The notes under the pieces: generated by a model | Told to the model about the DNA's origin: nothing | The model's database searches: none | The model's input: only the letters and a program-made list of their open reading frames with translations | Assembly: GCA_021413705.1 (NCBI GenBank) | Contig: JAIOPX010000146.1 | Coordinates: 49,479 to 81,478 of the forward strand | From: Planctomycetota bacterium | GTDB lineage: Bacteria; Planctomycetota; Planctomycetia; Pirellulales; UBA7805 | DNA length: 32,000 nucleotides | Reading direction: 5' to 3' | Shown here: in pieces, positions 3,751 through 24,736 of the stretch | How the letters are laid out: each line of letters begins with the position of its first letter | Position numbering within the stretch: position 1 is the stretch's first letter | Position numbers and translations under genes: made by a program

Positions 3751-4587
3751 ATGGCTCGCAAAAAGAATACCGTGACGGACGCCGTTAAGAAACTCCACAA
3801 CTCGCTTGCCGTTGCGCATTTTGTTGCATTCTCACACGATGCGTCATCAAGCCGCGACATCAAACTAGCGGAAGGGATCATCAGTGTTGGAGGTGTCGGT
3901 GCGTTGATCTCAGGAGCTGCATTCAACGGTTATGACACGAATGAATCGGATCCTGCGAAAGTGCGCATCGTGACGTATGGCGTAAAGGCAGTCCTTCGCA
4001 AGGACATTCTTCGCTTGATCGACGAAGGCAACGCTGCTGTTCAGTCAGATTCGATTGCCACTGCCTATGAGGTGATGGAGACATTCATAAAAGACTTAGC
4101 TGGCAACTTCCTGTCTTATTCCGGCAAGCACATTCCGATCGACAAGCGATTCCAAGAAAAAGCAAAGAAGTCATTTGCAAAGAACACGCCCCCATATTTT
4201 AAGGAAGTTGCAAAGGCGATGGCACGCCAGAACTGTGATGGCCTTTACAAGCTGTTTTTTAAGCACGTTGATGGGCTTGAGGAACGTGTGCGCACGTATC
4301 ATCGGGGCGATCTACATGACTCTCACCGAGCTGTCGAGGCAATTCGTCATCTGAAGACTCATGAGTTTGGGCGTTATATTCCGGCCAAAATAAAAAAGTG
4401 TCCAACAGGCGCACAACACATTGTTAAAGCGTGTGTTCGCAACAGCATCATTCACAAAACAGACTGGATACTTCCAACATTTAAGCAGGCACAAGACTTC
4501 CTCATCCGAGAAGCTGAATACGGGCAAATACTGTATCAATCTGTCAGCGAAGAACTGGGAATGAAAATTGACTACTTGCCTGGGTAA
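3751..4587 (+). CDS. Hypothetical 278-aa protein inserted between pglW and pglX; possible HEPN-type (R-H-x3-H) effector
   Basis: Clean ORF starting 12 nt after the pglW stop and ending 23 nt before the pglX start, on the same strand. It is noticeably more A/T-rich than its neighbours: single 60-nt lines I counted gave about 48% G+C here and about 58% in late pglW, which is not a window-wide calculation. C-terminal segment HRAVEAIRHLKTHEFG contains RHLKTH, matching the HEPN Rx4-6H signature with a polar residue after the Arg. I recognise no other family. Confidence 0.7.
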   Translation: MARKKNTVTDAVKKLHNSLAVAHFVAFSHDASSSRDIKLAEGIISVGGVGALISGAAFNGYDTNESDPAKVRIVTYGVKAVLRKDILRLIDEGNAAVQSDSIATAYEVMETFIKDLAGNFLSYSGKHIPIDKRFQEKAKKSFAKNTPPYFKEVAKAMARQNCDGLYKLFFKHVDGLEERVRTYHRGDLHDSHRAVEAIRHLKTHEFGRYIPAKIKKCPTGAQHIVKACVRNSIIHKTDWILPTFKQAQDFLIREAEYGQILYQSVSEELGMKIDYLPG

Positions 4588-4610: not shown

Positions 4611-7600
4611 ATGATTGACCGAAAAGCATTACTAGCTGACCTCCAGGACTTGCTGCGGCAGTTGGAGGCGGACTTGCTGGAGCGCAGCGAGTCGGATGAG
4701 GTGCCGGAGGTGGGAGAGGCGCTGCGCGCAGAGTTTGCGCGGGCGCAGCAGGCGCAGCGGACGGCGCAGAACTTTGAGGACTGGCGCGCGGACGCCACCA
4801 CTCAGGCGGCGGCGGCGTGGGTACTATCGTGCGTGTTCGTGCGGTTCCTGGAAGACAACCGACTCGTCGAGCCGCCACGGATCGCCGGGCTGGGGGATCG
4901 GCTGGCGCGGGCACGCGATGAGCATGAGTTGTACTTCCGTAAACATCCTACTGAGACCGATCGACATTACCTGCTGGCTGCGTTCGATGAGTTGGCCAGA
5001 CTGCCTGGCGCGAAGGACATCTTTGGCGAGCACAATCCCTTTCGCGAGTTGCCCAATTGGCTCTCCGGCGATGCGGCTGGGGAGTTGCTGCGGTTCTTCC
5101 AGAAGATCGACGCCAACACGGGCGCGCTGGTCCACGATTTCACAGACCCGGATTGGGACACACGATTCCTGGGAGACTTGTACCAGGATCTGTCCGAAAC
5201 GACGCGCAAAAAGTACGCCCTGTTGCAGACGCCAGAGTTTGTCGAGGAGTTCATCCTCGATCGGACGCTTGATCCAGCAATCGAAGAGTTCGGGCTGGCC
5301 GGCTTTCGCATGATCGACCCGGCATGTGGCAGTGGACACTTTCTGCTCGGGAGTTTCCGTCGCATTCTGGATCGCTGGCAGAAGAAGGAGCCTGGCACAA
5401 AGGTCCGCGATCTGGTGCAAAAGGCGCTCGACAGCATTCACGGAGTGGATCTGAACCCGTACGCCGTGGTCATTGCCCGTTTCCGGCTGCTGCTGGCGGC
5501 AATGCGGGCCAGCAATATACGCACGCTGGCTGATGCACCGGCATTTCAACTCAACATTGTCTGTGGTGACTCGCTGTTGCACGGCGTTGGCGCCCAAGCA
5601 AGCCTCGGTTGGCACGAGTTCGATCATGTGTACCAGGCGGAGGACCACAAGGAGCTAGTCCAGGTTCTGAAGCCCAGCCACTACCATGCTGTGGTGGCCA
5701 ACCCGCCGTACATTACGCCGAAAGACAAGGCCATGAACGACGCCTACCGCGAGCGGTATTCAGCCTGTCACATGAAGTATTCGCTCTCGGTCCCATTCAT
5801 GCAGCGGCTGTTTCAGTTGACTGTCCGCGGAGACGGCAATGGGCAGGGGGCATCGGGTTACGTCGGCCAGATAACAGCCAATAGTTTCATGAAGCGTGAG
5901 TTCGGCAAGAAACTGATCGAGGAGTTCTTGCCCACGGTGGACCTGAGTCACGTCATCGACACGAGCGGGGCCTATATTCCCGGTCACGGAACGCCAACCG
6001 TTATCTTGTTTGGGCGAAATCGCCGTCCAATTAGCGGCACCCTCCGCACTGTCATGGGTATCCGTGGCGAACCGAGTACACCGAATGATCCAGCGCAAGG
6101 CGTGGTCTGGACTGCCATTACCGCCCAAGTGGACCAACCCGACTCACAAGGTTCGTTTGTCAGCGTCTGCGACTCGCTGAGAGACAACTTCCATAAGCAT
6201 CCGTGGTCTATTGGCGGAGGCGGTGCGGCGGAGTTGAAGGAGGAATTACATGCCGTGGCAACCAGCACTCTCGCAGCCCTAGTCGATTCGATCGGCCCGC
6301 CGAGTTTTGCAGGCGTGGATGACATGTTTTTCTCAACCGAGAATGCATTGCGCCGAGCCGGAGTTGAGCCGAACCTTATTCGTCAGCTTATCAGTGGCGA
6401 TGTTGTCCGCGATTGGGTCATTGCACGCGATATTGATTGCCTTGTTCCGTACGACAATAACCACAATCTGCTTGCCTTTGACGCCAGTGCTCCGTGGGGA
6501 CGTTATGTTTGGCTGACCAAAGCCTCATCAGAGGGGATGGTGTCATTCAACAAGCAAACACGAAGGGAACTGCGCGAACCTTGGTGGTCGTGGTATCGTT
6601 GGATTCCGGGACGATTCAAGACCCCGTATGCAATTGTTTTCGCCGAGGTGGCCACTCACAATCACTTCGCTCTGGATCGCGGGGGCAGAGTTTTCAAGCA
6701 GACGGCCCCTGTCATCAAGCTGCCCGCCGACGCAACCGAAGATGACCACCTGGCGCTACTAGGACTTCTGAACAGCTCCACAGCGTGCTTCTGGATGAAA
6801 CAAGTGTGCTTCCCCAAAGGGACAACAACTGGCGACATTAGCACGGAGAAAGGACGAGCGGAAGCAAATCGGTTTGCATTTAATTCGACGGCTCTCGAAA
6901 ACTTTCCGCTACCAAATTGGTCTGAAGCGTGTCGCCAGGAGGTTATCGCAACAGCACGTGCTATTACTTTTCGCGGTGAGCAGATTAACCAATTGCAATC
7001 ACAGCAGAGAATCGAGGAGCTACTTTCCAAAGTGGATCGGAAATTATTTCTCTCGCTGCTAGAACAAGACCGTAATGCCATTGAACGACTAAAGCGTGAA
7101 ATGGTTTTCCTCCAAGAGGAATTAGACTGGTCTGTTTACGAGGCTTATGGATTTGTTCACGGTACTATCAAGACGAATGTCAACGACGATGTGCAGCAGG
7201 CCACGAAGTCAGAGCGACCGTTCTGTGCTGATGCCGACATAGATGCGAGCATCGCACAGAGTGATGTGTGGAAATCACGACGTCAAATAATTGGAGCGGT
7301 TGACGCCATTCGGCTGATCGAGACACCGGTCTACAAGCGGCTATGGGCCGGACGCCAGGGCGTTTATGGCTTGGCGAGTAGGACAGTAGCTGAACAGCAG
7401 CGAGATCAATTGGAACAGTTGTTGCTGAGCCGATTGGAGAGCTATTTCGACTTTGATGGGCGGATGAACGAACCAAGTGGTCGGACTGCAAAATTAGGGA
7501 CGGAGCTGTCTTCTACTGCGCAGATTGCCGACATCGCGGACGGCGATTCGGACTTTCACAACCTCGGCGCTGCCCTGCAAGGCGACTTCGCCTTCGACCT

Positions 7601-8333
7601 GCCGCGGCTGGTTGCGGAACTGGTCGAATCCCAGAGTGTCCCCCTGCTGCCGATTCTCCGTTACAAGGCCAGCGGCTTGCGCAAGCGCGCCGAGTGGCAG
7701 CAGACCTGGGAATTGCAGCGTGAGGAAGATCAACTGCGCAGCCATCTCGCTGATTTGGAAGAGGAGGCCCACGCGAAGCGAGCGGAACACGACGGAGACT
7801 TGCCAAGAGACATTGAACGCATCCTTGCGTTAATCGGCAAAGATATTGCCGCTCAGAAACAGAAATGCCACGAGTTCGCGGCCGCGATACCTGTCCCGCC
7901 CAAGTACACAAGCGGTGACTTTCTCAAGAGCGACTATTGGCGCCTCCGCGGCAAACTCGACGTCCCCAAGGAACGCTGGGTCAGCTTTCCCCACTGCGAA
8001 GGCCCCGACGGCACGCTGGTCGTCGCTTGGGCCGGCTACGACCACCTGCAACTGGCCACGGCGGTCGGGCAGTACTATCAGCGCGTCAAGGACGAGTTCG
8101 GCGGCAGCGACGACCCTCGTTTGACCCCGCTCCTGGCCTGCCTGATCGAGCTGCTCCCCTGGCTCAAGCAGTGGCACAACGAAGTATCGGCCGAGTTCGG
8201 CGTCCCCATGGGCGAATACTTCGAGGGCTTCGTGCAGGAAGAAGCCCGCCAACTCGGCAAAACCCTACCGGAAATCCAATCCTGGCAGCCCCCCGCCCGC
8301 ACCAGCGGCCGCCGGCGGAGGGCCACAACATGA
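4611..8333 (+). CDS. pglX: PglX, BREX N6-adenine DNA methyltransferase
   Basis: 1240-aa ORF. SAM-binding motif I is FRMIDPACGSGHFLLGS and catalytic motif IV is VVANPPYITPKD (NPPY). Size, motif order and position after pglW fit PglX. Confidence 0.9.
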   Translation: MIDRKALLADLQDLLRQLEADLLERSESDEVPEVGEALRAEFARAQQAQRTAQNFEDWRADATTQAAAAWVLSCVFVRFLEDNRLVEPPRIAGLGDRLARARDEHELYFRKHPTETDRHYLLAAFDELARLPGAKDIFGEHNPFRELPNWLSGDAAGELLRFFQKIDANTGALVHDFTDPDWDTRFLGDLYQDLSETTRKKYALLQTPEFVEEFILDRTLDPAIEEFGLAGFRMIDPACGSGHFLLGSFRRILDRWQKKEPGTKVRDLVQKALDSIHGVDLNPYAVVIARFRLLLAAMRASNIRTLADAPAFQLNIVCGDSLLHGVGAQASLGWHEFDHVYQAEDHKELVQVLKPSHYHAVVANPPYITPKDKAMNDAYRERYSACHMKYSLSVPFMQRLFQLTVRGDGNGQGASGYVGQITANSFMKREFGKKLIEEFLPTVDLSHVIDTSGAYIPGHGTPTVILFGRNRRPISGTLRTVMGIRGEPSTPNDPAQGVVWTAITAQVDQPDSQGSFVSVCDSLRDNFHKHPWSIGGGGAAELKEELHAVATSTLAALVDSIGPPSFAGVDDMFFSTENALRRAGVEPNLIRQLISGDVVRDWVIARDIDCLVPYDNNHNLLAFDASAPWGRYVWLTKASSEGMVSFNKQTRRELREPWWSWYRWIPGRFKTPYAIVFAEVATHNHFALDRGGRVFKQTAPVIKLPADATEDDHLALLGLLNSSTACFWMKQVCFPKGTTTGDISTEKGRAEANRFAFNSTALENFPLPNWSEACRQEVIATARAITFRGEQINQLQSQQRIEELLSKVDRKLFLSLLEQDRNAIERLKREMVFLQEELDWSVYEAYGFVHGTIKTNVNDDVQQATKSERPFCADADIDASIAQSDVWKSRRQIIGAVDAIRLIETPVYKRLWAGRQGVYGLASRTVAEQQRDQLEQLLLSRLESYFDFDGRMNEPSGRTAKLGTELSSTAQIADIADGDSDFHNLGAALQGDFAFDLPRLVAELVESQSVPLLPILRYKASGLRKRAEWQQTWELQREEDQLRSHLADLEEEAHAKRAEHDGDLPRDIERILALIGKDIAAQKQKCHEFAAAIPVPPKYTSGDFLKSDYWRLRGKLDVPKERWVSFPHCEGPDGTLVVAWAGYDHLQLATAVGQYYQRVKDEFGGSDDPRLTPLLACLIELLPWLKQWHNEVSAEFGVPMGEYFEGFVQEEARQLGKTLPEIQSWQPPARTSGRRRRATT

Positions 8334-9109
8334 GGCATCCATACGTGGGTGATGTGGGTGATTTTGGCAAGTATGGATTACTTCGCGCGCTGCATCAAGA
8401 AAATGGATCACAGCGGCTTGGCGTAGTGTGGTATCTCACAGATGCTGAAGAGCATAACAAAGATGGCAAGCATGACGGCTATCTCACCACTGCGTCTGAA
8501 AAGCGCCGCGCCATTTACCGAGACTGCGACCCGGAGCTTTACGACGTTTTAAGGGCGGTACGTAAGCACCGTCAGCTCAATATCGAAATGATGGAAAACG
8601 GAAACGTTCTTCACCAATCCACGGCATTCTTCGGAACATCTTTACCGGTATTCAGGGGGAGGGTCCGCGAACAACGCGAATACAAAACTCGGTGGGAGCA
8701 ACGTGAGAAATGGCATAGCGCTGCGGTCCACTCAATGAAAAACTCGGCATGTGTTTTTACCGACCCAGATAACGGCATTCTCTTCGCCTCACGGGATTCA
8801 GTGGAACGCAGGAAGCCCTCGCATAAGCACGCCTATTGGCATGAAATTGCAGGGTATCTCTCACTGGGTATGAGTGTAGTGGCCTATCACCATCTGGGAC
8901 GACAGCGCGGAGGTCATTCCGCGTTGATCAAGGAATGCCTGAGAAAAATCGGCTATCTGGGGTTCGATGCCTGGGCGGTGCATTATCGACGTGGGACGGG
9001 GCGGGCCTTTGTGGTGATACCTGAGAAAAGCAGCGCTAAACAACTTCTTAATGGCACACGTCAATTCGTCGCGGTCTGGAAGGAGCATGCGGGCCTTGTC
9101 ACGCTTTAA
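8330..9109 (+). CDS. Hypothetical 259-aa protein translationally coupled to pglX; possible RlmJ-like Rossmann-fold protein with divergent motif IV (DPDN)
   Basis: The ATG at 8330 overlaps the pglX TGA (ATGA, 8330-8333). The track ORF 7937-9109 carries an Arg/Pro-rich N-terminal extension that lies inside pglX in another frame, so I discount that extension. N-terminus YVGDVGDFGKYGLLRAL lines up with my recollection of E. coli RlmJ HAGNHADVLKHxxL (G, N/D, D, K, H/Y, L). ACVFTDPDNGI lines up with RlmJ LIDPPYE. VVAYHHLGR and GRAFVVIPEK sit where RlmJ has YALWYPV and MIVINPPW. This alignment is by eye only. Confidence 0.7.
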   Translation: MRHPYVGDVGDFGKYGLLRALHQENGSQRLGVVWYLTDAEEHNKDGKHDGYLTTASEKRRAIYRDCDPELYDVLRAVRKHRQLNIEMMENGNVLHQSTAFFGTSLPVFRGRVREQREYKTRWEQREKWHSAAVHSMKNSACVFTDPDNGILFASRDSVERRKPSHKHAYWHEIAGYLSLGMSVVAYHHLGRQRGGHSALIKECLRKIGYLGFDAWAVHYRRGTGRAFVVIPEKSSAKQLLNGTRQFVAVWKEHAGLVTL

Positions 9110-9194
9110 TGTCGAGTATGTCTTTCGCGAATTCCCGTTGCGAGTGAAACTGAACGCGAGATGAAATCGCCTTGCCCGACACAATTTTGGAAGT

Positions 9195-9200
9195 AAGGAG
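9195..9200 (+). promoter_or_regulatory. Shine-Dalgarno (AAGGAG) for the 171-aa ORF
   Basis: AAGGAG lies 7 nt upstream of the ATG at 9208. The track's upstream start at 9172 is a TTG with no ribosome-binding site. Confidence 0.5.
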
Positions 9201-9207
9201 TACGAAA

Positions 9208-9723
9208 ATGCCAGAAATGCCATCACTATCAACTCCATCCGAGAAGAGCTTGGTCGATTTTGCTATTCTGGCACCCGTGCCTGAAGAACACCTGCTTGAC
9301 GGTGAGCCGGTAGCGGACGCTGAAGGGTTTGTCGCCTTCGGCTCCCGAAAATGGGAACTCTTTCGCGCGGTGGACAAACTACGCGAGGGCGATCCTGTCC
9401 CTGTACTCATCTACCCGTCTCACGAGCATGAGGCCGGCAAACTGACATTCAAGATCATGTGGAGCGGGTGGTATATCGGGAGCGTGGAGAGCCATGATGG
9501 ATCTCACCCTGCCGGCATGAAGCATCGCCCGCCATCGACCGAGCAATATGCACAGGACAACCTGGGGCTGTGGGCCGTCTTCTGGCACGTCGCAGGACTT
9601 AAACCTCTGCCGGAGGCAGAACATCGGCTCATTTCGTCGCTGCGAAGTTACAAAACAGGCCACTGGCGAGTGGGACAAGCGCCGAAGGGGCCGGAAATCG
9701 TGGCCAGACCTAGTTGGATCTGA
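9208..9723 (+). CDS. Hypothetical 171-aa protein (no recognisable family), immediately upstream of the GmrSD-like gene
   Basis: ORF with a good ribosome-binding site and ATG, on the same strand and packed between two other cargo genes (98-nt and 68-nt spacers). The sequence (…LIYPSHEHEAGKLTFKIMWSGWYIGSVE…FWHVAGLKPLPEAEHRLISSL…) has a mixed, globular-looking residue composition. I recognise no motif. Confidence 0.6.
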   Translation: MPEMPSLSTPSEKSLVDFAILAPVPEEHLLDGEPVADAEGFVAFGSRKWELFRAVDKLREGDPVPVLIYPSHEHEAGKLTFKIMWSGWYIGSVESHDGSHPAGMKHRPPSTEQYAQDNLGLWAVFWHVAGLKPLPEAEHRLISSLRSYKTGHWRVGQAPKGPEIVARPSWI

Positions 9724-9791
9724 AACGAAAGTGCGGCGACATAAGATTACGCCTTTTCAATTTTTGACCCGGTACCTGCCATGAGCCACAC

Positions 9792-11480
9792 ATGAAGAAC
9801 CAAAAACAGACCATACGCAAGATCGTCGGATTTCTGAACAACCCTGACGAAGACGGCGGCTTTTGGCTGCCCAACATCCAGCGTCCCTTTGTGTGGACGG
9901 AAGAGCAGATTTGCCGGCTGTTTGACTCGATTCTGCGTGAGTATCCGATCAGCACGCTGTTGGTTTGGAAAACAACGAGCAAGATTCGGCGGCGGAAGTT
10001 CATCGACAACTGGAAGCATTCACTTCGCCTCAGCGATTTCTACGCCACGGAGGATGAGCAAAAGAAGTGCTTGGTGCTTGATGGTCAGCAGCGTCTGCAA
10101 AGCCTTTTCATCGGCCTTAAGGGCAGTTTTGAGGGACGCGAATTGCATTTGGACATACTTAGCGGGGACGTTGCGGCTCCAGACGACATCAAGTACCGAT
10201 TCAAGTTCCTGGAGGCCGCCAAGGCAAAGTTCCCCTGGATTCGCTTTCGCGATCTGATGTTTACAACGAAAAAGCAGCGGCAGCTCAGCGCCGAGATCGG
10301 GGAGAATGCCGGCCGCGAGTTGGGCGAAGAAGAAGCAGACAAGATTGGTGACCACCTGAACTTGATAGACCGCACATTCAAGATGGATGAAGCCGTCGTC
10401 TACCAGGAACTCGACAGCATTGATAATCCCAAGCTCTACACCGAAGACGATGTTGTGGAAATCTTTATCCGTGCCAATTCTGGCGGCACGATTCTCGGTA
10501 AATCCGACCTCCTGTTCTCATTGCTCAGTGTGAAGTGGAACTTTGCAAACGAAAAGATGGAAGAATTGCTGGAGTCGCTAAACAGGCATGGGTTCGCATT
10601 CGACCGCGATTTCGTTCTCAAGACATGCCTCGTTGTATTTGGACAGGGAGCTCGCTACGAGGTCGATAAGTTCCGCAAGGCGGGGGTGCGAGAGGACATC
10701 GAGGGGAACTGGGACCGCGTTTCTGAATCAATCCAAGACGTGCTGGACTACCTGCGCGAAAAAACATTCATTCGATGTGATCGCGCAATTCCTTCCTACT
10801 TGGTCCTAATACCTCTCGTCTACCTGCGGTATCACTACAAAGAGGCTTGGCGAGCGGCACAGAAAGTGGATGACTATGTCGTGCGCTGTCTCCTGACCGG
10901 AGCATTCGGTGGCCAGCCGGACAATCTTATCGACGCCCTCACGAAGACGATTGCTGAATCAAGTCATTTCGACGTCAAAGCGGCCTTTGCTGCCATACGT
11001 TCCCAACAACGCTCTTTGGAGCTTACAGAGGACCGATTCTGGCAAATGGGATATGGCTCAAAGACTATCCATCTGCTTTTCAATCTTTGGTACCGTGACT
11101 TCAATCAGACACCCGCCTATGACAATAACATGCCACAGATTGATCATATATTTCCGCAGAGCGCCCTTAAGAAATTGAAGGTGATAAATCCCGAAACGGG
11201 GCGGTCGGTGATGAAATACACCAGCGACGTTCGCGATCAGCTTGCAAACTGCATGCTGCTCAGCCGCGAAGAGAACGGCTCCGGCGGAAAGTGGGCCACT
11301 CTGCCCAAGGAATGGTTTTCCAGCAAAGATTCGGACTACCTCCGTAAGCACTTGATTCCTGCGGACCCTAAATTGTGGGAAATGGATCAATTCGAGGAGT
11401 TCATTGAGGAACGAAAAAAGTTGATTGCTGACCGTTTTAAGTGGCTGTTGGCGACCTCTGCTGTTACGAGTCCCGATTGA
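9792..11480 (+). CDS. GmrSD/BrxU-like type IV (modification-dependent) restriction endonuclease, DUF262 + DUF1524
   Basis: The N-terminal DUF262/ParB-like signature is WLPNIQRPFVWTEEQICRLFDSILREYPISTLLVW, plus the LVLDGQQRLQSLF (DGQQR) motif. The C-terminal DUF1524 His-Me finger signature is IDHIFPQS … LANCMLLSREENGSGGK. 562 aa. Confidence 0.85.
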   Translation: MKNQKQTIRKIVGFLNNPDEDGGFWLPNIQRPFVWTEEQICRLFDSILREYPISTLLVWKTTSKIRRRKFIDNWKHSLRLSDFYATEDEQKKCLVLDGQQRLQSLFIGLKGSFEGRELHLDILSGDVAAPDDIKYRFKFLEAAKAKFPWIRFRDLMFTTKKQRQLSAEIGENAGRELGEEEADKIGDHLNLIDRTFKMDEAVVYQELDSIDNPKLYTEDDVVEIFIRANSGGTILGKSDLLFSLLSVKWNFANEKMEELLESLNRHGFAFDRDFVLKTCLVVFGQGARYEVDKFRKAGVREDIEGNWDRVSESIQDVLDYLREKTFIRCDRAIPSYLVLIPLVYLRYHYKEAWRAAQKVDDYVVRCLLTGAFGGQPDNLIDALTKTIAESSHFDVKAAFAAIRSQQRSLELTEDRFWQMGYGSKTIHLLFNLWYRDFNQTPAYDNNMPQIDHIFPQSALKKLKVINPETGRSVMKYTSDVRDQLANCMLLSREENGSGGKWATLPKEWFSSKDSDYLRKHLIPADPKLWEMDQFEEFIEERKKLIADRFKWLLATSAVTSPD

Positions 11481-11509: not shown

Positions 11510-14500
11510 ATGACCCTCATAAAAGACCTCATTGAAATCCCTGACCACGTTCAGAAGGGGGACTTCGTCCTCCACTTGGCGGAGGACATTGGCCGGCCTG
11601 AAGTGGTCTTGAAAAACTACGTGGTTACGCCCGAACTGAAGGTGTGCTACGACGACGCGTTGGCGTTTGTCCGCAGCGCTGTCCAAGGAAACACCAGCAA
11701 GGCCGCGTACCTGCACGGTAGTTTCGGCAGCGGCAAAAGCCATTTCATGGCCGTGCTGCACCTGATTCTGCAAGGCAATGCCGCCGCCCGCGGCATTCCC
11801 GAGCTGGCGCCCGTCATCCAGAAGCACAATGACTGGATTGCCGGCAAGAAGTTCCTGCTCGTGCCGTACCACATGATCGGCGCCCACGACATGGAGTCGG
11901 GCATCCTGGGGGGCTATGTCGAGTACATTCGCCGTGTGCATCCCGAGGCGCCCATTCCCGGCGTCTATCTGGCCGAGGGGCTGTTTCGCGATGCCCAGTC
12001 GTTGCGGGCGACGCTGGGTGACGCAAAGTTCTTTGAGAAACTCAACGAAGGGGGTGGCAGCGGCGGTGGCTGGGGGGCACTTGCGGCCAATTGGGACGCC
12101 GCCCGATTCGATACCGCGGTCGAGGCACCTCCGGGCGCGGAGGAGCGGTCGCAGCTCATCAGCACTCTGATAGCCAAGTTCTTTGGCTCCTACGACACGC
12201 AGGCTGGCGGCAGGGGTGAAGCGTTCATTTCTCTCGACAAAGGACTGTCTGTCATCAGTCAACACGCGGCCAGCCTGGGGTATCACGCGCTCATTCTGTT
12301 CCTGGACGAGCTGGTCCTGTGGCTGGCCAGCCATGCCGCCGATCTGAAGTTCGTTCATCAGGAAGGGCAGAAGCTGGCCAAGCTGGTCGAGGCCCAGACG
12401 CCTGACCGTCCGGTGCCCGTGGTGAGCTTCGTGGCCCGACAGCGGGATTTGCGGGAGCTGATCGGCGATGCCGTGCCGGGTGCAGATCGACTGAACTTTG
12501 GCGATGCGTTGAAACATTGGGAGGGGCGGTTCCACAAGATTACGCTAGAGGATCGGAATCTGCCGCTGATCGCAGAAAAGCGGGTCTTGAAGTGCAAGAG
12601 TGAATCCGCGCGCCAGGAACTCGATGCGGCCTTCGAGCAGACTATCAAGATGCGCGACTCGGCCATGAACGTGTTGCTGACGGCCGAGGGAGACCGGCAG
12701 ATGTTCCGCCGCGTCTACCCGTTCAGTCCAGCGCTCGTGCAGACTCTGATCGCAGTCTCCAGCGTCTTGCAGCGGGAACGGACGGCGCTGAAGGTCATGA
12801 TGCAATTGCTCGTTGAGCAGCGGGAAACGCTCAAGGTAGGAGACATTGTCCCGATCGGCGACCTGTTCGACACGATCGCCCACGGTGACGAAGCATTCAG
12901 CCAGGAGATGGCCCTCCACTTCGACAACGCCAAGCGGCTGTATCACCAGAAGCTGCTGCCGCTGCTGGAACGGCAGCACGGGATCCGCCGTGAAGACGTC
13001 GAACAGCTTCCTTACGAGGATCCGAAGCGAATTGCCTTCCGCAATGACGACCGGCTCATCAAGACGTTGCTCTTAGGCGCCCTCGTGCCCGAAGTGGAAT
13101 CGCTCCGCTCCCTCAACGCCGAACGGCTGGCAGCGCTGAATCACGGCACGATCCGCACCCCGATCGCCGGCCGAGAGGGGCAAGAAGTATTGCGCCGTTG
13201 CCGGGCTTGGGCTGCCAGCGTGGGCGAGATCCGCATCGGTGAAGAGACCAACCCGACCATTTCGGTTCAACTTTCGGGCGTCGATACCGAAGGGATCATT
13301 GCCCAGGCCAGCCGCGAAGACAATCAGGGAAACCGGATTCGTCGGGTGCGACAGATCCTGTTCGAGCAGGTGGGGATCGAGGGTGAAGGCGAGTTTGAGC
13401 AGTACCACGAGTTTCTGTGGCGAAATACCAAGCGAAGTTGTGTTGTGCTGTTCAAGAACATCCGTGAGTTGCCAGACGCTTCACTGGAGAGCAATGAAGA
13501 CGCCTGGAAGCTGATCATCGACTTTCCCTTTGACGAGCCGGGGCACGGCCCCATGGACGACCTCAGCCGGTTACAGAAGTTCCGGCAGACCCAACCCCAA
13601 GGAGCCAAGACAGTCTGCTGGGTGCCTGCGTTTCTCAGCAATGAGGCGCAGAAGGATTTGGGGATGCTCGTCATCCTGGAGCACATTTTGTCGGGCGAGC
13701 GATTCACCCAGTATTCCAACCATCTCTCACCCCAGGACCGGCAGTCGGCCAAGTCGGTGCTGGAAAATCAGCGGAGCGTGTTGCGGGAGCGGGTCAAAAG
13801 CCACCTGGACGCGGCCTACGGCCTGGAGGCCATCACGCCGGGGGCACTCGACACGACGCACGAGTTGGAACTGGCTGAGCGATACGTTTCGTTGTTTTCG
13901 GGGTTTGATCCGCAACCACCGGTGGCCGCCAATCTGGGTCAGGCGATGCAGCACCTGATTGGTCAGGCACTGATCCACGAGTTTCCGGCAGCGCCAAACT
14001 TTGAGACGGAGATCAAGTCGGGGAATCTCAAAAAGGTTTATGAACAGGTCGCGCTGGCCACCCAAGCGCCCGATGGCCGAGTCGAAGTGGACAAGACCTT
14101 ACGTCCTCTGTTGCGGCAGATCGCGAATCCGTTGCTCGTGGGGGAGATGCGACTGGACGCCACCCATTTTGTGCTGGGGCGGCACTGGCGAAGCCATTTT
14201 GGTCGCAAGGCTGCCGAGACGGGTAGCCCGATGACGGTTGAAAACCTTCGCAAGTGGATTGACGATCCGCGGCCCATGGGATTGCCGAAGGAGGCCCAAA
14301 ACCTGGTGCTGCTCGTCTTCGCGGCCCAGACGAACCGGACATTTTATCTGCACGGCGTTCACTACGACGAGCCGACGCTGGCTAACATTCCCGATAAGTG
14401 TGAGCTACGCGAACAGAAGCTGCCGGACGCAGGAACGTGGGAGAAGGCCGTCCAGCGGGCCGGTAGCATTTTTGGAGTGGCCGTCTCCCGACTGCTCAAC

Positions 14501-15208
14501 GCCAGCAATGTCGGCCTCCTCTCCGCCGGTGTCAAGGCGAAGGCGGGCGAAGTACGCCGGCCGTGCCAGAGATACGTCCAGCGCCTGCGCGAGCGTCTGA
14601 CACGGATCGGGGTGGTGCCGGAAGAGGCCGACCGGATGTTGACCGCTTCGACGACCCAGGGGCTTGTCGAGCGCATTTGCGGCGACGAGGCGATTGATTT
14701 GGTGAACCTGCTGGCCACCGCTAACGTGGCAACCAGCGAGGCGGCTATGGGGGAGTGCGTCGGTAAGGCGGCCGAGTTGGAAGGGAATCTGGACACGGGC
14801 GGCTGGGAGATTTTCGAGGCCGTGGGGGCACTGACGGACGATCGTCAAGCAGAGGCCAGGGAGGTGGTTGTCGCGGTGCGCGACGCACTGCGAAGCGACG
14901 AGCACGTCATGCAGCTCGCGCCAGCACTGCGAGGCGCCCAGGCCAAGGCAGTGCGGTTACTCTCTAAGCCGACGCAAGCTCAGCCGCCGACTGGTCCAGC
15001 ACCGGTTGTGCCTCCCGCCGGTCCAACCATAGTGGCTCCCGTCGTCCCGGACAACACGCGCAAAATCGTAAGCCAGGGAGCGGAACAGGGTTTAGAGTTG
15101 CCGGCTGCCAAGGAATTGCTCGCCAAACTGGATCGGGATAAGCGCGCTGGGCAGGCCGTGCGCGTCAATCTCAGTTGGATCATTGAAGAAGGGGGCAAGT
15201 CAACGTGA
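11510..15208 (+). CDS. pglY: PglY (BrxC/PglY family) large P-loop ATPase of BREX
   Basis: 1232-aa ORF. Walker A is LHGSFGSGKSHF near the N-terminus and a Walker B-like motif is LILFLDELVLWL. Size and position between pglX and pglZ fit PglY. Its stop overlaps the pglZ start. Confidence 0.85.
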   Translation: MTLIKDLIEIPDHVQKGDFVLHLAEDIGRPEVVLKNYVVTPELKVCYDDALAFVRSAVQGNTSKAAYLHGSFGSGKSHFMAVLHLILQGNAAARGIPELAPVIQKHNDWIAGKKFLLVPYHMIGAHDMESGILGGYVEYIRRVHPEAPIPGVYLAEGLFRDAQSLRATLGDAKFFEKLNEGGGSGGGWGALAANWDAARFDTAVEAPPGAEERSQLISTLIAKFFGSYDTQAGGRGEAFISLDKGLSVISQHAASLGYHALILFLDELVLWLASHAADLKFVHQEGQKLAKLVEAQTPDRPVPVVSFVARQRDLRELIGDAVPGADRLNFGDALKHWEGRFHKITLEDRNLPLIAEKRVLKCKSESARQELDAAFEQTIKMRDSAMNVLLTAEGDRQMFRRVYPFSPALVQTLIAVSSVLQRERTALKVMMQLLVEQRETLKVGDIVPIGDLFDTIAHGDEAFSQEMALHFDNAKRLYHQKLLPLLERQHGIRREDVEQLPYEDPKRIAFRNDDRLIKTLLLGALVPEVESLRSLNAERLAALNHGTIRTPIAGREGQEVLRRCRAWAASVGEIRIGEETNPTISVQLSGVDTEGIIAQASREDNQGNRIRRVRQILFEQVGIEGEGEFEQYHEFLWRNTKRSCVVLFKNIRELPDASLESNEDAWKLIIDFPFDEPGHGPMDDLSRLQKFRQTQPQGAKTVCWVPAFLSNEAQKDLGMLVILEHILSGERFTQYSNHLSPQDRQSAKSVLENQRSVLRERVKSHLDAAYGLEAITPGALDTTHELELAERYVSLFSGFDPQPPVAANLGQAMQHLIGQALIHEFPAAPNFETEIKSGNLKKVYEQVALATQAPDGRVEVDKTLRPLLRQIANPLLVGEMRLDATHFVLGRHWRSHFGRKAAETGSPMTVENLRKWIDDPRPMGLPKEAQNLVLLVFAAQTNRTFYLHGVHYDEPTLANIPDKCELREQKLPDAGTWEKAVQRAGSIFGVAVSRLLNASNVGLLSAGVKAKAGEVRRPCQRYVQRLRERLTRIGVVPEEADRMLTASTTQGLVERICGDEAIDLVNLLATANVATSEAAMGECVGKAAELEGNLDTGGWEIFEAVGALTDDRQAEAREVVVAVRDALRSDEHVMQLAPALRGAQAKAVRLLSKPTQAQPPTGPAPVVPPAGPTIVAPVVPDNTRKIVSQGAEQGLELPAAKELLAKLDRDKRAGQAVRVNLSWIIEEGGKST

Positions 15209-17886
15209 CGATTGCGGCACCCACATTCAGCCAAATCAAAGCGCAAGTGGCAGCGATTCGTCAGAAAGTTCCCAATGCGCGCGTGATTGGCATTCACGCG
15301 CCGGGACGCTGGTCGGGTGAAAAGCTCAAACGGGATGGGGATGAGTCCTATCTGATCCAGCAATGTGACTCGCCGCTGGCGATGCGCCTCGCGCTCCGCG
15401 AGCCGGCGGAACCGGACGCCACGCGGGTACTGATTACCAGTTTGGACAACGATCAACTGAGTGACGACATCCGGCTTCGGCTGAGCAAGCGGAAACTGTT
15501 CCCGATCGACAGTTGGCAGATCGTGCGGTCGCTATTTCAGGCGCGGACTGTGGATCCGCGCTTGAGTCGGCCAAGCTGGAGCTGGATTGCCGATGCCCTG
15601 TTGGAGTTATTTCCCGCCGGGGGCTATCCGCCGGCCCGGGGTGGGTTTCTGGATGCCGAGACAGTCTGGCCGCTGTTGTTGGGGCGCGTGATGGGACTTT
15701 CCGCGGACAATCCCGATCTGGCATCGGTGTTGAGATGGTCGATCGACGCCGACGCGGTGGGGCGCTTTCGGCACGCTAGCGACGCCTTTCGCGCGGGGGC
15801 GATCGAATGGCTCTCCGAACGCACAGGCCCCGTGGCCGGGACGATCCTGCGGTGTGTGCAGCGGTTGGAGCGTCCCGATGCGCTGGCCTTGGGGTTGGCC
15901 GCGGGAGTTGTCTTTCACCCCATGGCGGCAGGTCGTCTGGAAAAGGCGGCCGGCAAACTGGAAGAAAGATTCTTGGGGGGTGAAAATCACGAGCCGGCCA
16001 TGATGGGCCGCTGGGCTGCCACGGCGACCGAAGTCGTACGGCTGCAACTGACGGACCCGAAGTTGCGACAGCAGCAAGTGCAGCGGGCCGATGAAATCCT
16101 GAGCGAACTTCAGGGCGAGGCGTTTGCCTACCTGAGCGACACGTCCCCGCTCGGCTTCGACCAACGGCTGGCACAATTCGGACAGCGGCTGTCGGAAACA
16201 CTTCAAGCCAAGTCCTATGGCTCGCTGGACGGGCTCCAGGAAGCCCGTGAGACGATCCGACGTCACGATAAGGCGGGAAGGGAAGCTCGACGGCTGGAAC
16301 GCGTGGACATGACACTGCGGCTGGTCTCTTGGCTCGCAAGCCGCCAAACTGCGTCGCCGCCCCCGTCGCTCGCTACCGACGCGGCAGATCACCTGCGTGA
16401 TGGCGGGTATGTCGATTGGGCACGGCTGGCGCTGCGGGCGGGGGACGCTGTGCCAGAACTTTCCCAGGGCTATGCTCGGCTGTTTGACGAGGTAACCAGC
16501 ATTCGGGAGCAGCAGGCGGCGCATTTTGGCCGACTGCTACGAGAATGGACCGCGGCCGGCTCGACAGGGGACGACGTCATCCCCATGGAGCGGATTCTGG
16601 AACAGGTGGTGGCGCCACTGGCTGCCAAGACTCCCGTGCTCTTGATCGTGATTGACGGGATGAGCGTCGCGGTCTGCCGCGAACTATTGGCCGATGCAAC
16701 GCGCGAAGAGTGGATCGCACTGACTGAGCCAGGGCGGCCGTTTAACCGGCCGGGTATCGCCACAATCCCATCCGTGACGGAAATGTCTCGCACGAGTCTG
16801 ATGTGCGGTCAGCTACGCAGGGGATCGTCCAGCGACGAAAAGATTGGGTTCGCCGAGCATCCCACGCTCCTGGAACAGTGCCGCAACGGTTATCCGCCGG
16901 TATTGTTCCACAAGGCATCACTTACAGAGTTCGATGATGCCAGTCTAGCGGCCGAAGTGCGACATGAGATCGGTTCCACGCATCGCAAGATTGTGGGCAT
17001 CGTGGTCAACGCGGTGGATGACCACCTGCTGAAGGGGGAACAGATCGACACCCGGTGGTCGCGTGACGAGATTAAGGTACTGCCCGCACTGTTGCATGAG
17101 GCCCGCCTGGCTCGGCGGGTCGTCGTGCTGGTGAGTGACCATGGTCACGTCCTGGATTGTCAGACCATCGGACGGATCTATGACGGTGGTGAGCGCTGGC
17201 GTCCTGACAACGGACAGTGCGAATCCAACGAATTGCAAGTTCAAGGGAGCCGCGTACTCACCGATGGTCAACGGCTGATTGCCCCGTGGACCGAAAAGCT
17301 GCGCTATGGCATCAAAAAGAACGGCTATCACGGGGGCCTGACGCCGCAAGAAATGGTCGTGCCGATTGTCGTCCTCAGTAGCTCCCAGTCGTTTCCCGCG
17401 GGTTGGACCGAAGCGTCGGTCGACAGCCCGGACTGGTGGGACGCACCGCTGCGCGTGACAAAGTCAATTGAGCCGACCACGCCCAAACTCAAACCTGCCA
17501 CGCTGTTCGATCTTATCGACCAGCAGGAAGAGCAAGCCCCTGCGGAACCGCCTCAGCCGTCGACCGACGACGCGGCGCCCCCATGGGTCTCGCGACTCGT
17601 GTCGGCGCCCGTCTTCGCTGCCCAGAAGCAACTCGGCGGCCGGGCAGTACCGGCAGACGAGGTCTTCACCCGACTTCTTTCCTTGCTTGATCGCCGTGGC
17701 GGCAAGATGACGTCGGTGGCACTAGCCCGGGCGCTGGACTACCCGCCCTTGCGACTGCGAGGGTTGCTGGCTGTGGCCCAGCGCGTTCTGAACGTCGATG
17801 GCTATGCGGTTATTAGCCGGGATGAAGCGTCGGATACCGTGGAATTGAATCGAGACTTGTTACTGGTCCAGTTCGATCTTGTTTGA
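15205..17886 (+). CDS. pglZ: PglZ, alkaline-phosphatase-superfamily BREX protein
   Basis: The GTG start overlaps the pglY TGA (GTGA, 15205-15208). PglZ / alkaline-phosphatase metal-site motifs are VLLIVIDGMSVAV, VVVLVSDHGHVLD and GYHGGLTPQEMVVP. The C-terminal roughly 90 aa looks like a winged helix (KMTSVALARALDYPPLRLRGLLAVAQRVLNVDGYAVI). Confidence 0.9.
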   Translation: MTIAAPTFSQIKAQVAAIRQKVPNARVIGIHAPGRWSGEKLKRDGDESYLIQQCDSPLAMRLALREPAEPDATRVLITSLDNDQLSDDIRLRLSKRKLFPIDSWQIVRSLFQARTVDPRLSRPSWSWIADALLELFPAGGYPPARGGFLDAETVWPLLLGRVMGLSADNPDLASVLRWSIDADAVGRFRHASDAFRAGAIEWLSERTGPVAGTILRCVQRLERPDALALGLAAGVVFHPMAAGRLEKAAGKLEERFLGGENHEPAMMGRWAATATEVVRLQLTDPKLRQQQVQRADEILSELQGEAFAYLSDTSPLGFDQRLAQFGQRLSETLQAKSYGSLDGLQEARETIRRHDKAGREARRLERVDMTLRLVSWLASRQTASPPPSLATDAADHLRDGGYVDWARLALRAGDAVPELSQGYARLFDEVTSIREQQAAHFGRLLREWTAAGSTGDDVIPMERILEQVVAPLAAKTPVLLIVIDGMSVAVCRELLADATREEWIALTEPGRPFNRPGIATIPSVTEMSRTSLMCGQLRRGSSSDEKIGFAEHPTLLEQCRNGYPPVLFHKASLTEFDDASLAAEVRHEIGSTHRKIVGIVVNAVDDHLLKGEQIDTRWSRDEIKVLPALLHEARLARRVVVLVSDHGHVLDCQTIGRIYDGGERWRPDNGQCESNELQVQGSRVLTDGQRLIAPWTEKLRYGIKKNGYHGGLTPQEMVVPIVVLSSSQSFPAGWTEASVDSPDWWDAPLRVTKSIEPTTPKLKPATLFDLIDQQEEQAPAEPPQPSTDDAAPPWVSRLVSAPVFAAQKQLGGRAVPADEVFTRLLSLLDRRGGKMTSVALARALDYPPLRLRGLLAVAQRVLNVDGYAVISRDEASDTVELNRDLLLVQFDLV

Positions 17887-17894
17887 GTCGCACC

Positions 17895-23369: not shown

Positions 23370-23374
23370 CTTGC

Positions 23375-24307: not shown

Positions 24308-24736
24308 TTCCTATCGTCGTTAACGTAAAATCCATCTACCTATTGGGACCAGAGCCGACGCCCTGCATGCACCATCGCAGCGCAATCAGGGTGTTATCAT
24401 ATCAAAAGTGGTTCGGTGCGAATACCGCAGACAGGCCGTACCCGTCAGATTATCCGCTCAAGCAGGCTGAGATCCTAACCCAACACGGCTGCCCGACGGA
24501 CGTTGTCTGCCCATTAAGGCGAACGTGGAATACCTCACGGACTGGCAACTACGCGGTGTGATCACCGCGTCCGAGCATGCGCCGATAGTCCCGCGAATAT
24601 CCATTCGGACTACCTCTTTGTGAGGTTAACCTGTCGATTGAAAATGAAAAGGCAGGACTGTTTCGGATGTATAAATATTCAGCGGAAAGAGTGGGGCGAG
24701 CTGTGATCCAGAAAATAAACCCGGCGGCAGAACATC

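What the first reader, a model, noticed from the sequence alone, without database searches (positions are those of the whole stretch)
8330..11480. Three-gene cassette wedged between pglX and pglY as a candidate undescribed accessory defence module
Three ORFs (259 aa, 171 aa, 562 aa) sit head-to-tail on the BREX strand. The junctions are an ATGA overlap with pglX, then 98-nt and 68-nt spacers, then 29 nt to pglY. Only the last ORF (DUF262/DUF1524, GmrSD/BrxU-like) has a known defence role, and GmrSD-type enzymes normally act as single proteins. Two unknown partners sit upstream in the same transcription unit. The first is translationally coupled to the BREX methyltransferase. This suggests either a regulated or licensed type IV nuclease, or a second modification/readout activity attached to PglX. 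By eye the cassette is more A/T-rich than pglX and pglY, which is consistent with acquisition as a unit.
Basis: partly seen in the sequence, partly recalled or inferred. Interest (0 to 1): 0.8.

Follow-up and report, generated by a model that had tools for sequence, protein, structure and literature searches.

The report
Three separate add-ons inside BREX-2
The three genes between pglX and pglY are real and conserved, but they are three independently inherited add-ons rather than one cassette: a methyltransferase-like partner of PglX, a small modified-base "reader" normally found in Hma systems, and a stand-alone BrxU-type nuclease; the first two are undescribed.

Summary

- **ORF1** has an RlmJ/DUF519-like methyltransferase fold. 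All six sampled relatives at 50% identity or more lie directly 3' of pglX in type 2 BREX. What follows them is nothing, Septu, or a different DUF262-HNH gene.
- **ORF2** has a PUA-like (ASCH/EVE/YTH) fold. Its relatives, including the closest ones, sit between the helicase and the DUF1156 adenine methylase of Hma systems.
- **GmrSD** belongs to the BrxU/HEC-05 family. Its closest relatives (79% identity) occupy the same pglX|pglY slot alone.

The locus is therefore a lineage-specific PglX-coupled accessory gene followed by a cargo hotspot. Nucleases embedded in BREX are already known. The RlmJ-like BREX-2 gene and the Pfam-less reader family of Hma are not described in the literature I could search. 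Their biochemical functions are inferred from fold and context only.

The parts
4611..8333 (+). pglX, the BREX-2 N6-adenine methyltransferase. This is context, and it forms the upstream border of the slot.
   Evidence: Pfam DUF7008, Eco57I, MmeI_Mtase and N6_Mtase. Homologous PglX precedes ORF1 homologues or GmrSD in L078, L158, L161, L163, L168, L170 and L173.
8317..8333 (+). Coupling junction: a GGAGG (8317-8321) inside the pglX 3' end lies 8 nt before the ATGA (8330-8333) that ends pglX and starts ORF1.
   Evidence: Sequence. The same GGAGG...ATGA junction occurs in L163 and L173 (followed by an ORF1 homologue) and in L168 and L170 (followed by GmrSD).
8330..9109 (+). ORF1, 259 aa. It is an RlmJ/DUF519-like class I methyltransferase-fold protein and a lineage-specific accessory gene of type 2 BREX.
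   Evidence: AF2 model with pLDDT 93.8. Foldseek top hits are RlmJ 6qdx/6qe5 and DUF519 2oo3 (E 1e-5 to 2e-4, probability 1.0, TM 0.43-0.47). Invariant residues include D11, K14, D145-P-D147-N-G, K166 and Y186-H-H. All six sampled relatives at 50% identity or more follow pglX, and together with the window's ORF1 they form one clade of seven.
9195..9200 (+). AAGGAG Shine-Dalgarno-like site 7 nt before the ORF2 ATG at 9208.
   Evidence: Sequence. The NCBI record starts the protein 3 codons later (168 aa).
9208..9723 (+). ORF2, 171 aa. It is a PUA-like (ASCH/EVE/YTH-like) fold protein whose family is normally a small gene of Hma (DUF499/DUF1156/SNF2) systems.
   Evidence: AF2 model with pLDDT 88.6. 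Apart from two Lon N-terminal domain hits (ranks 40 and 50), the top Foldseek PDB hits are PUA-like domains (2p5d at 1.8e-3, then YTH, ASCH, EVE and THYN1). Of 75 genome loci, 49 have the Hma helicase or methylase adjacent and 39 have HmaC. The closest homologues are also in Hma.
9792..11480 (+). GmrSD-family type IV restriction enzyme (BrxU/HEC-05 type, DUF262 + DUF1524). It is autonomous cargo.
   Evidence: Pfam GmrSD_N and GmrSD_C. PADLOC HEC-05 at 1.8e-105. DGQQR at 10080-10094 and IDHIFP at 11139-11156. Homologues at 79% identity sit alone between pglX and pglY in L168-L171.
11510..15208 (+). pglY, the BREX ATPase. This is context, and it forms the downstream border of the slot.
   Evidence: Pfam DUF6079/BrxC-PglY_N. 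It is 65-76% identical over its N-terminus to PglY of L078, L158, L161, L163, L168, L170, L173 and L174.

Best explanation
The region is a mosaic of three independently inherited modules inside a type 2 BREX operon. It is not one cassette.

(1) ORF1 is a lineage-specific BREX-2 accessory gene that stays directly 3' of pglX. It has the RlmJ architecture: a Rossmann methyltransferase core with an inserted helical subdomain, an N-terminal D-x-x-K element, and a motif-IV Asp-Pro. I infer that it is a SAM-binding nucleic-acid-modifying enzyme, or a PglX-bound adaptor, that works with MmeI/PglX-type adenine methylases.

(2) Downstream of ORF1, before pglY, lies a cargo hotspot. In sister loci this slot is empty, or holds Septu (PtuA/PtuB), or holds another DUF262-HNH nuclease. 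Here it holds ORF2 and GmrSD.

(3) GmrSD is a self-sufficient BrxU-type enzyme that cuts hypermodified phage DNA which escapes BREX.

(4) ORF2 is a PUA-like modified-base reader. Its family normally sits between the SNF2 helicase-nuclease and the adenine methylase of Hma systems. Here it has been transplanted, and it most likely reads a base-modification state (m6A or a phage hypermodification) for a neighbouring effector.

What is shown: gene content, folds, family distributions and independent assortment. What is inferred: every biochemical activity and any physical partnership.
For: - **Type 2 BREX gene set:**
- **No co-occurrence:** ORF1 and ORF2 HMMs give zero co-occurrence in 157 loci, and none in 16 further BREX-2, Hma or GmrSD loci.
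- **ORF1 homologues after pglX:**
  - followed directly by pglY in L161/L162, L163/L164 and L173;
  - followed by PtuA/PtuB in L078 and L158-L160;
  - followed by an NsnA-like DUF262-HNH gene in L174.
- **ORF1 phylogeny:** the BREX-linked ORF1 sequences form one clade.
- **ORF1 fold:**. The RlmJ paper describes the helical subdomain, motif X K18/D15 and motif IV D164. hhalign places VFxDPDNG on ILIDPPYE of RlmJ.
- **A second ORF1 context next to an MmeI-like methylase:** L102.
- **GmrSD alone in the slot** at 79% identity, and standalone on a plasmid-like contig at 75%.
- **Precedent for GmrSD in BREX:** HEC-05 equals the BrxU family, and BrxU complements BREX.
- **ORF2 fold:**
- **ORF2 in Hma:**
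- **ORF2 beside other methylases:** distant ORF2 homologues lie next to type III-like or MmeI-like methylases.
- **The slot is a general hotspot:** six plasmid BREX-2 loci have other cargo or nothing between pglX and pglY, and no ORF1 or ORF2.
Against: - **ORF1 is dispensable or absent in many BREX-2 loci.** It is missing from L168/L170 and from six plasmid loci. It could therefore be just an older piece of cargo rather than a PglX partner.
- **Coupling is not ORF1-specific.** The ATGA coupling is a property of the pglX 3' end.
- **ORF1's link to RlmJ is structural only.** TM is 0.45, hhalign probability is 0.1, and there is no Pfam hit. Motif IV is DPDNG, not (D/N)PP(Y/F/W), so N6-adenine methylation is not assured.
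- **Many distant ORF1 relatives lie in housekeeping neighbourhoods**.
- **ORF2's fold matches are only marginally significant** (best E 1.8e-3).
- **Part of the ORF2 family is in non-defence contexts**.
- **Sampling is small and biased.** There are 7 distinct ORF1-BREX loci and 3 GmrSD-BREX loci, mostly metagenomic contigs.
Confidence: 0.7

Rival explanations
1. The three genes form one co-functional accessory module acquired as a unit, for example a type IV nuclease licensed or regulated by two partners.
For: The genes share a strand, have short spacers and show no internal promoter or terminator signal. All three have lower G+C than the BREX core. A reader plus modifier plus modification-dependent nuclease is a coherent design. 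One ORF1 homologue is followed by a different DUF262-HNH gene (L174).
Against: No co-occurrence of ORF1 and ORF2 was found in 157 loci, and none of either with this GmrSD. Each gene occurs alone in the same slot or in other systems. GmrSD-family enzymes act as single proteins (BrxU/HEC-05). The three genes differ from each other in G+C and GC3.
Confidence: 0.06
2. ORF2 and GmrSD are a two-gene unit, a stand-alone PUA-like reader plus a type IV nuclease. They were captured together, perhaps from an Hma locus, and inserted downstream of the resident ORF1. ORF2 widens or gates the range of modifications that GmrSD attacks.
For: The two genes are adjacent, 68 nt apart. PUA/EVE readers are commonly fused or adjacent to type IV nucleases, with rare EVE-GmrSD fusions. 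Both families share the Hma 'embedding' ecology: HEC-05 stands for Hma-embedded candidate, and ORF2's family lives in Hma. A DUF262 protein lies directly upstream of a distant ORF2 homologue in L059, and DUF262 proteins lie inside three ORF2-bearing Hma loci.
Against: The closest GmrSD homologues in the same BREX slot lack ORF2. The closest ORF2 homologues lack GmrSD. None of the 49 Hma loci has a GmrSD-like gene next to the ORF2 homologue on the methylase side. ORF2 and GmrSD differ in G+C, 0.574 against 0.513.
Confidence: 0.2
3. ORF1 has no functional link to PglX or BREX. It is another piece of cargo, either an independent defence or modification gene or a recruited housekeeping RNA methyltransferase-like gene, that became fixed in one BREX-2 sublineage.
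For: The family is large (4391 representative clusters) and almost always stand-alone. Many members neighbour housekeeping genes such as AroKB, PheS, MutS2 and RsmE. The sister clade belongs to a different triad, PurA-like + AAA + ORF1 homologue. Related BREX-2 loci lack it. The ATGA coupling is generic to the pglX 3' end.
Against: Seven distinct BREX-2 loci keep it in the same position while the downstream cargo changes. These ORF1 sequences form one clade. Another member sits beside an MmeI-like methylase in a helicase-methylase system. The active-site-like residues are invariant.
Confidence: 0.25

Closest known systems
BrxU (GmrSD-family type IV enzyme embedded in the type 1 BREX locus of E. 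fergusonii pEFER; equals PADLOC HEC-05)
   Same: It is a DUF262 + DUF1524 single-protein nuclease nested in a BREX operon on the same strand. It is expected to cover modified-DNA phages that BREX misses.
   Different: Here the host system is type 2 BREX. The slot is pglX|pglY, and two further non-nuclease genes lie upstream. Activity was not tested.
Embedded auxiliary effectors in BREX and Hma ('guilt by embedding', Payne et al. 2024 preprint; 'auxiliary and backup nucleases', Rakesh & Krishnan 2026)
   Same: Variable defence genes (GmrSD, OLD-ABC/Septu-like ATPase + HNH) are nested inside BREX operons in the system's orientation. The slot behaviour seen here fits this pattern.
   Different: Those surveys catalogue nucleases and candidate systems. 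Neither ORF1 nor ORF2 matches any PADLOC model. The BREX survey lists type 2 as core + PglW + BrxHI + BrxD, with no RlmJ-like gene.
RlmJ / DUF519 (E. coli 23S rRNA m6A2030 methyltransferase)
   Same: It is the best structural match. Both have a Rossmann core with a helical subdomain inserted after strand 1. Both have an N-terminal helix with D-x-x-K (RlmJ D15/K18 against ORF1 D11/K14) and a motif IV that begins Asp-Pro.
   Different: There is no detectable sequence homology. Motif IV is DPDNG instead of DPPY. The N-terminal tail is shorter. The context is defence, not ribosome biogenesis. The substrate is unknown.
Stand-alone EVE/ASCH/PUA readers linked to COG1743 (DUF1156) - DUF499 - SNF2-nuclease systems (Bell, Wolf & Koonin 2020; Hma of Payne 2021; type-1 'BR' of Rakesh & Krishnan 2026)
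   Same: A small PUA-like protein is encoded in the operon of an adenine-methylase/helicase-nuclease defence system and is proposed to read base modification.
   Different: The ORF2 family has no Pfam EVE or ASCH signature. It is bacterial (mostly Alphaproteobacteria and Planctomycetes) and has a fixed position between HmaA and HmaB. In this window it is detached from Hma and sits in BREX-2 next to GmrSD.

Membership tests
Type 2 BREX (Pgl) | PglW kinase, PglX methylase, PglY ATPase, PglZ phosphatase, BrxD and BrxHI helicase in one co-oriented locus | tested here: met
   Pfam Pkinase + RNA_pol_A_CTD; DUF7008/Eco57I/MmeI_Mtase; DUF6079; PglZ; BrxC_BrxD; DEAD/Helicase_C/WH_Lhr
GmrSD / BrxU (HEC-05) type IV restriction enzymes (562-aa ORF) | N-terminal DUF262 with DGQQR motif and C-terminal DUF1524 His-Me (D-H-I-x-P) nuclease motif in one polypeptide | tested here: met
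   GmrSD_N 8e-30 and GmrSD_C 1.4e-8. HEC-05 model matched over residues 4-554 at 1.8e-105. DGQQR at 10080-10094 and IDHIFP at 11139-11156.
GmrSD / BrxU (HEC-05) type IV restriction enzymes (562-aa ORF) | Modification-dependent DNA cleavage and phage restriction as a single protein | not testable with these tools
   Supported only by analogy and by its solitary occurrence in L168-L172.
RlmJ / DUF519 methyltransferases (ORF1) | Sequence membership (Pfam family or profile match) | tested here: not met
   No Pfam or NCBIfam hit. The PDB profile search gave nothing relevant. hhalign against E. coli RlmJ gave probability 0.1.
RlmJ / DUF519 methyltransferases (ORF1) | Rossmann methyltransferase fold with inserted helical subdomain | tested here: met
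RlmJ / DUF519 methyltransferases (ORF1) | Motif IV (D/N)PP(Y/F/W) and motif X lysine | tested here: inconclusive
   The invariant D145-P-D147-N-G aligns to D164-P-P-Y of RlmJ, so the Asp-Pro is kept and the P-Y is lost. Invariant D11 and K14 have RlmJ-like D-x-x-K spacing. The correspondence was not verified in 3D.
RlmJ / DUF519 methyltransferases (ORF1) | SAM binding and methyl transfer | not testable with these tools
   No biochemical or ligand-docking tool was available.
PUA-like modified-base readers (EVE/ASCH/YTH) (ORF2) | Sequence membership in the Pfam EVE, ASCH or YTH family | tested here: not met
   No Pfam hit at E<=0.01. The PDB profile search gave nothing relevant.
PUA-like modified-base readers (EVE/ASCH/YTH) (ORF2) | PUA-like pseudo-barrel fold | tested here: met
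   Apart from two Lon N-terminal domain hits (ranks 40 and 50), the top Foldseek PDB hits are ASCH, EVE, YTH or THYN1 domains. The best is 2p5d at E 1.8e-3, probability 0.98, TM 0.41-0.47. The model has pLDDT 88.6. Significance is marginal.
PUA-like modified-base readers (EVE/ASCH/YTH) (ORF2) | Aromatic or polar pocket that binds a modified base | tested here: inconclusive
   Many conserved aromatic residues are present (W49, Y69, W85, Y89, W122, W126, H127). Their spatial arrangement was not examined.
Hma / type-1 DUF499 'BR' system | HmaA SNF2 helicase(-nuclease), HmaB DUF1156 methylase and HmaC DUF499 ATPase present in the locus | tested here: not met
   These genes are present around ORF2 homologues. 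None was found in this window. ORF2 is detached from its usual system.
Single mobile three-gene cassette | Co-occurrence of the three genes elsewhere, or mobile-element boundaries | tested here: not met
   Zero co-occurrence. No flanking repeats.

The most novel reading that the evidence does not exclude
ORF1 is an active second methyltransferase, or a SAM-dependent subunit, that forms a complex with MmeI/PglX-type methylases in one clade of type 2 BREX. ORF2 is an m6A-state reader that links the PglX mark to a nuclease. The locus would then physically encode the 'modify, read, restrict' logic long proposed but never demonstrated for Pgl. It would also reveal a reader shared between BREX and Hma.
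Probability: 0.12. Interest if true: 0.85.

Novelty: new variant of a known kind. Interest (0 to 1): 0.5.

Why it matters
How type 2 BREX (Pgl) works is still unresolved. The latest survey lists only PglW, PglX, PglY, PglZ, BrxD and BrxHI. A conserved RlmJ-like methyltransferase-fold gene fixed behind pglX in one lineage is a concrete new component that can be tested. The same holds for a Pfam-less PUA-like reader that is a near-constant extra gene of bacterial Hma systems and appears here in BREX.

Both families are large and unannotated. ORF1 has about 4400 clusters at 50% identity. Its sister clades form a recurrent PurA-like + AAA + ORF1 triad that looks like an undescribed system.

For the original claim, the practical lesson is negative. 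Adjacency inside a defence operon marks a cargo hotspot, not a functional unit.

Tried and rejected
**Dead ends**
- Sequence-level family searches for ORF1 and ORF2 gave nothing usable: Pfam, NCBIfam, PHROGs and PADLOC and PDB profile searches. The only hits were an AbiEii match at 0.0099 and a BilD match at 0.034, both dismissed as noise.
- hhalign of the ORF1 profile against E. coli RlmJ was not significant, although it aligned motif IV.
- The BFVD viral fold search for ORF1 gave no significant match.
- The promoter, terminator and repeat scans showed nothing above chance.
- The 265-aa gene after the ORF2 homologue in L061 was tested as a hidden ORF1 relative and is not one.
- Plasmid tblastn for ORF1 gave only three distant, uninformative hits.
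- ORF1 relatives in viral contigs (about 30% identity) had unrecognisable neighbours.

**Ideas considered and rejected**
- ORF1 as TcmP, the partner of the DUF5131 gene at 26113-27069. There is no NCBIfam match and the two genes are 17 kb apart.
- ORF1 as a DxD glycosyltransferase. The fold search favours methyltransferases.
- ORF1 tree versus PglY tree congruence. The identities are too similar to be informative.

Full report

Yes. The window, which comes from a Planctomycetes MAG according to the names attached to the identical proteins, carries a complete type 2 BREX/Pgl operon on the + strand:
- PglW kinase, 28-3738
- an unknown 278-aa gene, 3751-4587
- PglX, 4611-8333
- three inserted ORFs
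- PglY, 11510-15208
- PglZ, 15205-17886
- BrxD, 17883-19214
- the Lhr-like helicase BrxHI, 19211-21331

The three ORFs have the stated sizes (259, 171 and 562 aa). The junctions are an ATGA overlap with pglX, then spacers of 98, 68 and 29 nt. Their G+C (0.522, 0.574, 0.513) is below that of pglX (0.577) and pglY (0.612). However, the central part of pglX is just as low.

No promoter-like or terminator-like signal above the shuffled expectation lies inside the region, and no flanking repeats do either.

All three are genuine genes. ORF1 has 1388 homologues in the word-indexed search and 4391 representative clusters in the exhaustive profile search. ORF2 has at least 197 homologues. The 562-aa ORF has thousands.

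**2. What are the three proteins?**

*The 562-aa protein.* It is a canonical GmrSD-family enzyme. It matches Pfam GmrSD_N and GmrSD_C, and it has the DGQQR and IDHIFP motifs. It matches PADLOC HEC-05 over its full length at 1.8e-105. HEC-05 stands for 'Hma-embedded candidate 05' and is the BrxU family.

*ORF1.* It has no sequence-level family. A confident AlphaFold model (pLDDT 93.8) has as its only significant PDB matches E. coli RlmJ (6qdx, 6qe5) and the DUF519 protein 2oo3. These score E 1e-5 to 2e-4, probability 1.0 and TM 0.43-0.47. Other class I methyltransferases follow.

The model shares RlmJ's unusual helical subdomain, which is inserted after the first strand. The family's invariant residues include a D11-x-x-K14 pair in the N-terminal helix, comparable to D15/K18 of RlmJ. 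They also include a D145-P-D-N-G loop that hhalign places on RlmJ's catalytic D164-P-P-Y.

The Asp-Pro is kept, but the second proline and the aromatic residue are not. ORF1 is therefore RlmJ-like in architecture, but it is not a demonstrable member of the RlmJ family. N6-adenine methylation is a hypothesis only.

*ORF2.* It also lacks any sequence family. Its model (pLDDT 88.6) matches, with two exceptions (Lon N-terminal domain, ranks 40 and 50), only PUA-like domains: MJECL36/ASCH, EVE, YTH and THYN1. The significance is marginal, with a best E of 1.8e-3 and probability 0.98. It has many conserved aromatic residues.

**3. Do they travel together?**

No. I fetched 74 genome loci around ORF2 homologues and 80 metagenome loci around ORF1 homologues, plus 3 earlier loci. 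I searched them by tblastn, by HMMs of both families and by phmmer with the BREX proteins. There was no co-occurrence of ORF1 with ORF2, and none of either with this GmrSD.

Each gene has its own home.

*ORF1.* Every close relative I could place (50-58% identity; P0004, P0009, P0013, P0014, P0017 and L078) lies directly 3' of pglX in a type 2 BREX locus. Including the window, five of the six loci in which the pglX junction is visible have a 4-nt overlap. What lies between it and pglY varies:
- nothing in L161/L162, L163/L164 and L173;
- a Septu pair in L078 and L158-L160 (PtuA 7.8e-140, PtuB 4.2e-68);
- a different DUF262-HNH gene in L174.

These seven ORF1 sequences form one clade. Its sister group consists of relatives that follow a PurA-like gene and a 705-aa AAA ATPase.

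*GmrSD.* The two closest relatives (79% identity) sit alone between pglX and pglY. They start at the same ATGA that starts ORF1 elsewhere, and neither ORF1 nor ORF2 is present. A 75% relative is solitary on a plasmid-like contig.

*ORF2.* In 49 of 75 loci an Hma helicase or methylase is adjacent, and in 39 HmaC is present. The typical order is:
- WYL regulator
- HmaA (SNF2 + NOV_C)
- ORF2 homologue
- optionally a roughly 1400-aa TmtA-like protein
- HmaB (DUF1156 methylase)
- HmaC (DUF499 +/- HEPN)

The closest homologues (63-65% identity, including a planctomycete genome) are in the same setting. So are a Bradyrhizobium plasmid copy and the only 'viral contig' copy. More distant members follow type III-like or precede MmeI-like adenine methylases in helicase-methylase loci. 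Others are in non-defence neighbourhoods.

**4. The slot.**

Six independently sampled plasmid-borne type 2 BREX loci were examined: Polaromonas, Thiodictyon, Sphaerotilus, Azospirillum, Streptomyces and Rhodococcus. They contain neither ORF1 nor ORF2. Between pglX and pglY they have either nothing or unrelated cargo, such as ATPases, a KAP NTPase or ParA-like genes.

The pglX|pglY junction is therefore a general insertion hotspot of type 2 BREX. ORF1 is a lineage-specific occupant that stayed while later cargo accumulated 3' of it.

The pglX 3' end in this lineage carries a GGAGG about 8 nt before the ATGA. Whichever gene follows uses this signal. The coupling therefore says little about function.

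**5. Most likely mechanism.**

*Shown.* The locus combines a BREX-2 core, a BrxU-type enzyme, a methyltransferase-fold protein and a PUA-like protein, and these assort independently.

*Inferred.*
- GmrSD acts alone on hypermodified phage DNA and complements BREX, as BrxU does.
- ORF1 works with MmeI/PglX-type methylases. This rests on its fixed position behind pglX in seven loci and on a further member between an SNF2 helicase and an MmeI-like methylase in L102. It may be a second SAM-dependent modifying activity or a SAM-binding adaptor.
- ORF2 reads a base-modification state for an adenine-methylation-based system. This is the role proposed for stand-alone EVE proteins with the same DUF1156-DUF499-SNF2 systems in archaea. 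Here it may serve BREX or GmrSD.

I put about 0.85 on the modular architecture and about 0.8 on ORF1 having a methyltransferase-type fold. I put about 0.4 on ORF1 being catalytically active and about 0.5 on a functional link to PglX. I put about 0.7 on ORF2 being a nucleic-acid or modified-base reader, and about 0.2-0.3 on a functional ORF2-GmrSD pair.

**6. Comparison with what is known.**

Embedding of GmrSD/BrxU, and of ABC-ATPase + HNH pairs, in BREX is published. The general idea that genes nested in BREX or Hma are defence candidates is published too.

The most recent BREX survey defines type 2 as core + PglW + BrxHI + BrxD. It does not mention an RlmJ-like gene or a small reader in type-1 DUF499 systems. 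No held paper contains both 'RlmJ' and 'BREX'. Neither ORF matches PADLOC.

Hence the GmrSD part is already known. The ORF2 family is a new member of a known kind, namely PUA-like readers attached to Hma-type systems. ORF1 is a new, undescribed accessory of a BREX-2 sublineage. Overall the locus is a new variant of a known kind.

**7. Verdict.**

The 'three-gene module' interpretation is not supported as a unit.

Interest is moderate (0.5). Nothing here is categorically new. However, two large unannotated families gain a fold, a context and testable hypotheses, and type 2 BREX gains a candidate extra component.

Noticed in passing
window 3751-4587 (+): A 278-aa gene of unknown family lies between pglW and pglX and has very low G+C (0.477). 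It is conserved at the same position (37% identity, E 5e-71) in the ORF1-bearing BREX-2 loci L161/L162. It is absent from six plasmid BREX-2 loci. It may be a second lineage-specific accessory gene.
   Followed up: partly
window 6411-7610 (inside pglX): G+C dips to about 0.52 (GC3 0.54-0.57), against 0.62-0.66 at both ends of pglX. This is compatible with an exchanged target-recognition region.
   Followed up: no
L001 4780-8789; L002; L079; L080 6668-10774; also L081, L082, L094, L135, L138, L153: ORF1-family genes recur with a PurA-like (adenylosuccinate-synthetase family) gene in 16 of 82 loci. The trio is either PurA-like + 705-aa AAA ATPase (weak IetA-like hits) + ORF1 homologue, sitting next to an integrase in L001, or it includes a dCTP-deaminase-like gene. 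There are no PADLOC hits for the PurA-like or DCD-like genes. This looks like an undescribed nucleotide-centred system.
   Followed up: partly
L102 1133-8360; L061 1901-10689; L074; L077: In SNF2-helicase + MmeI-like methylase loci, the small gene directly after the helicase is an ORF1 homologue in L102 and an ORF2 homologue in L061, L074 and L077. The MmeI-like methylase follows in L102, L061 and L074; it was not seen within the short L077 contig. Both families thus occupy equivalent positions beside PglX-type methylases.
   Followed up: partly
L016 10480-14709 and about 23 other Hma loci: A roughly 1400-aa sacsin/HATPase-like protein (PADLOC TmtA-like, 2.5e-56) is inserted right after the ORF2 homologue in about a third of the Hma loci.
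   Followed up: no
window 28-3738 (pglW): PglW here is 1236 aa with no NERD domain detected. The L161 orthologue is 1421 aa with NERD. The ORF starts 27 nt from the window edge, so an upstream separate NERD gene cannot be excluded.
   Followed up: no
window 9208 vs 9217: The public annotation starts ORF2 at the second Met (168 aa). The upstream ATG at 9208 has an AAGGAG 7 nt before it and is the more likely start.
   Followed up: yes
window 21499-27069: Downstream of BrxHI lies a lower-G+C stretch (about 0.51-0.56). It holds unknown genes (245, 399 and 348 aa), a stand-alone Ser/Thr kinase (23375-24307, - strand) and a DUF5131 gene (26113-27069). From about 27.4 kb onward the genes are housekeeping (DUF188, nitroreductase, pterin dehydratase, DinB). 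The unknown genes may be further island cargo.
   Followed up: partly
L158 13349-13708; L163 9328-9666: Sister BREX-2 loci carry an extra small gene between pglZ and brxD: a 23S_rRNA_IVP four-helix-bundle protein in L158 and an unknown 112-aa gene in L163. This is a second, smaller insertion slot, and it is empty in the window.
   Followed up: no
one search hit list: This GmrSD subfamily is unusually conserved, at 70-79% identity across Planctomycetes, Delta- and Betaproteobacteria and Parvibaculum. It is more conserved than the flanking PglX (52-54%) and PglY (65%) in the same loci. This suggests frequent horizontal exchange or strong constraint.
   Followed up: no
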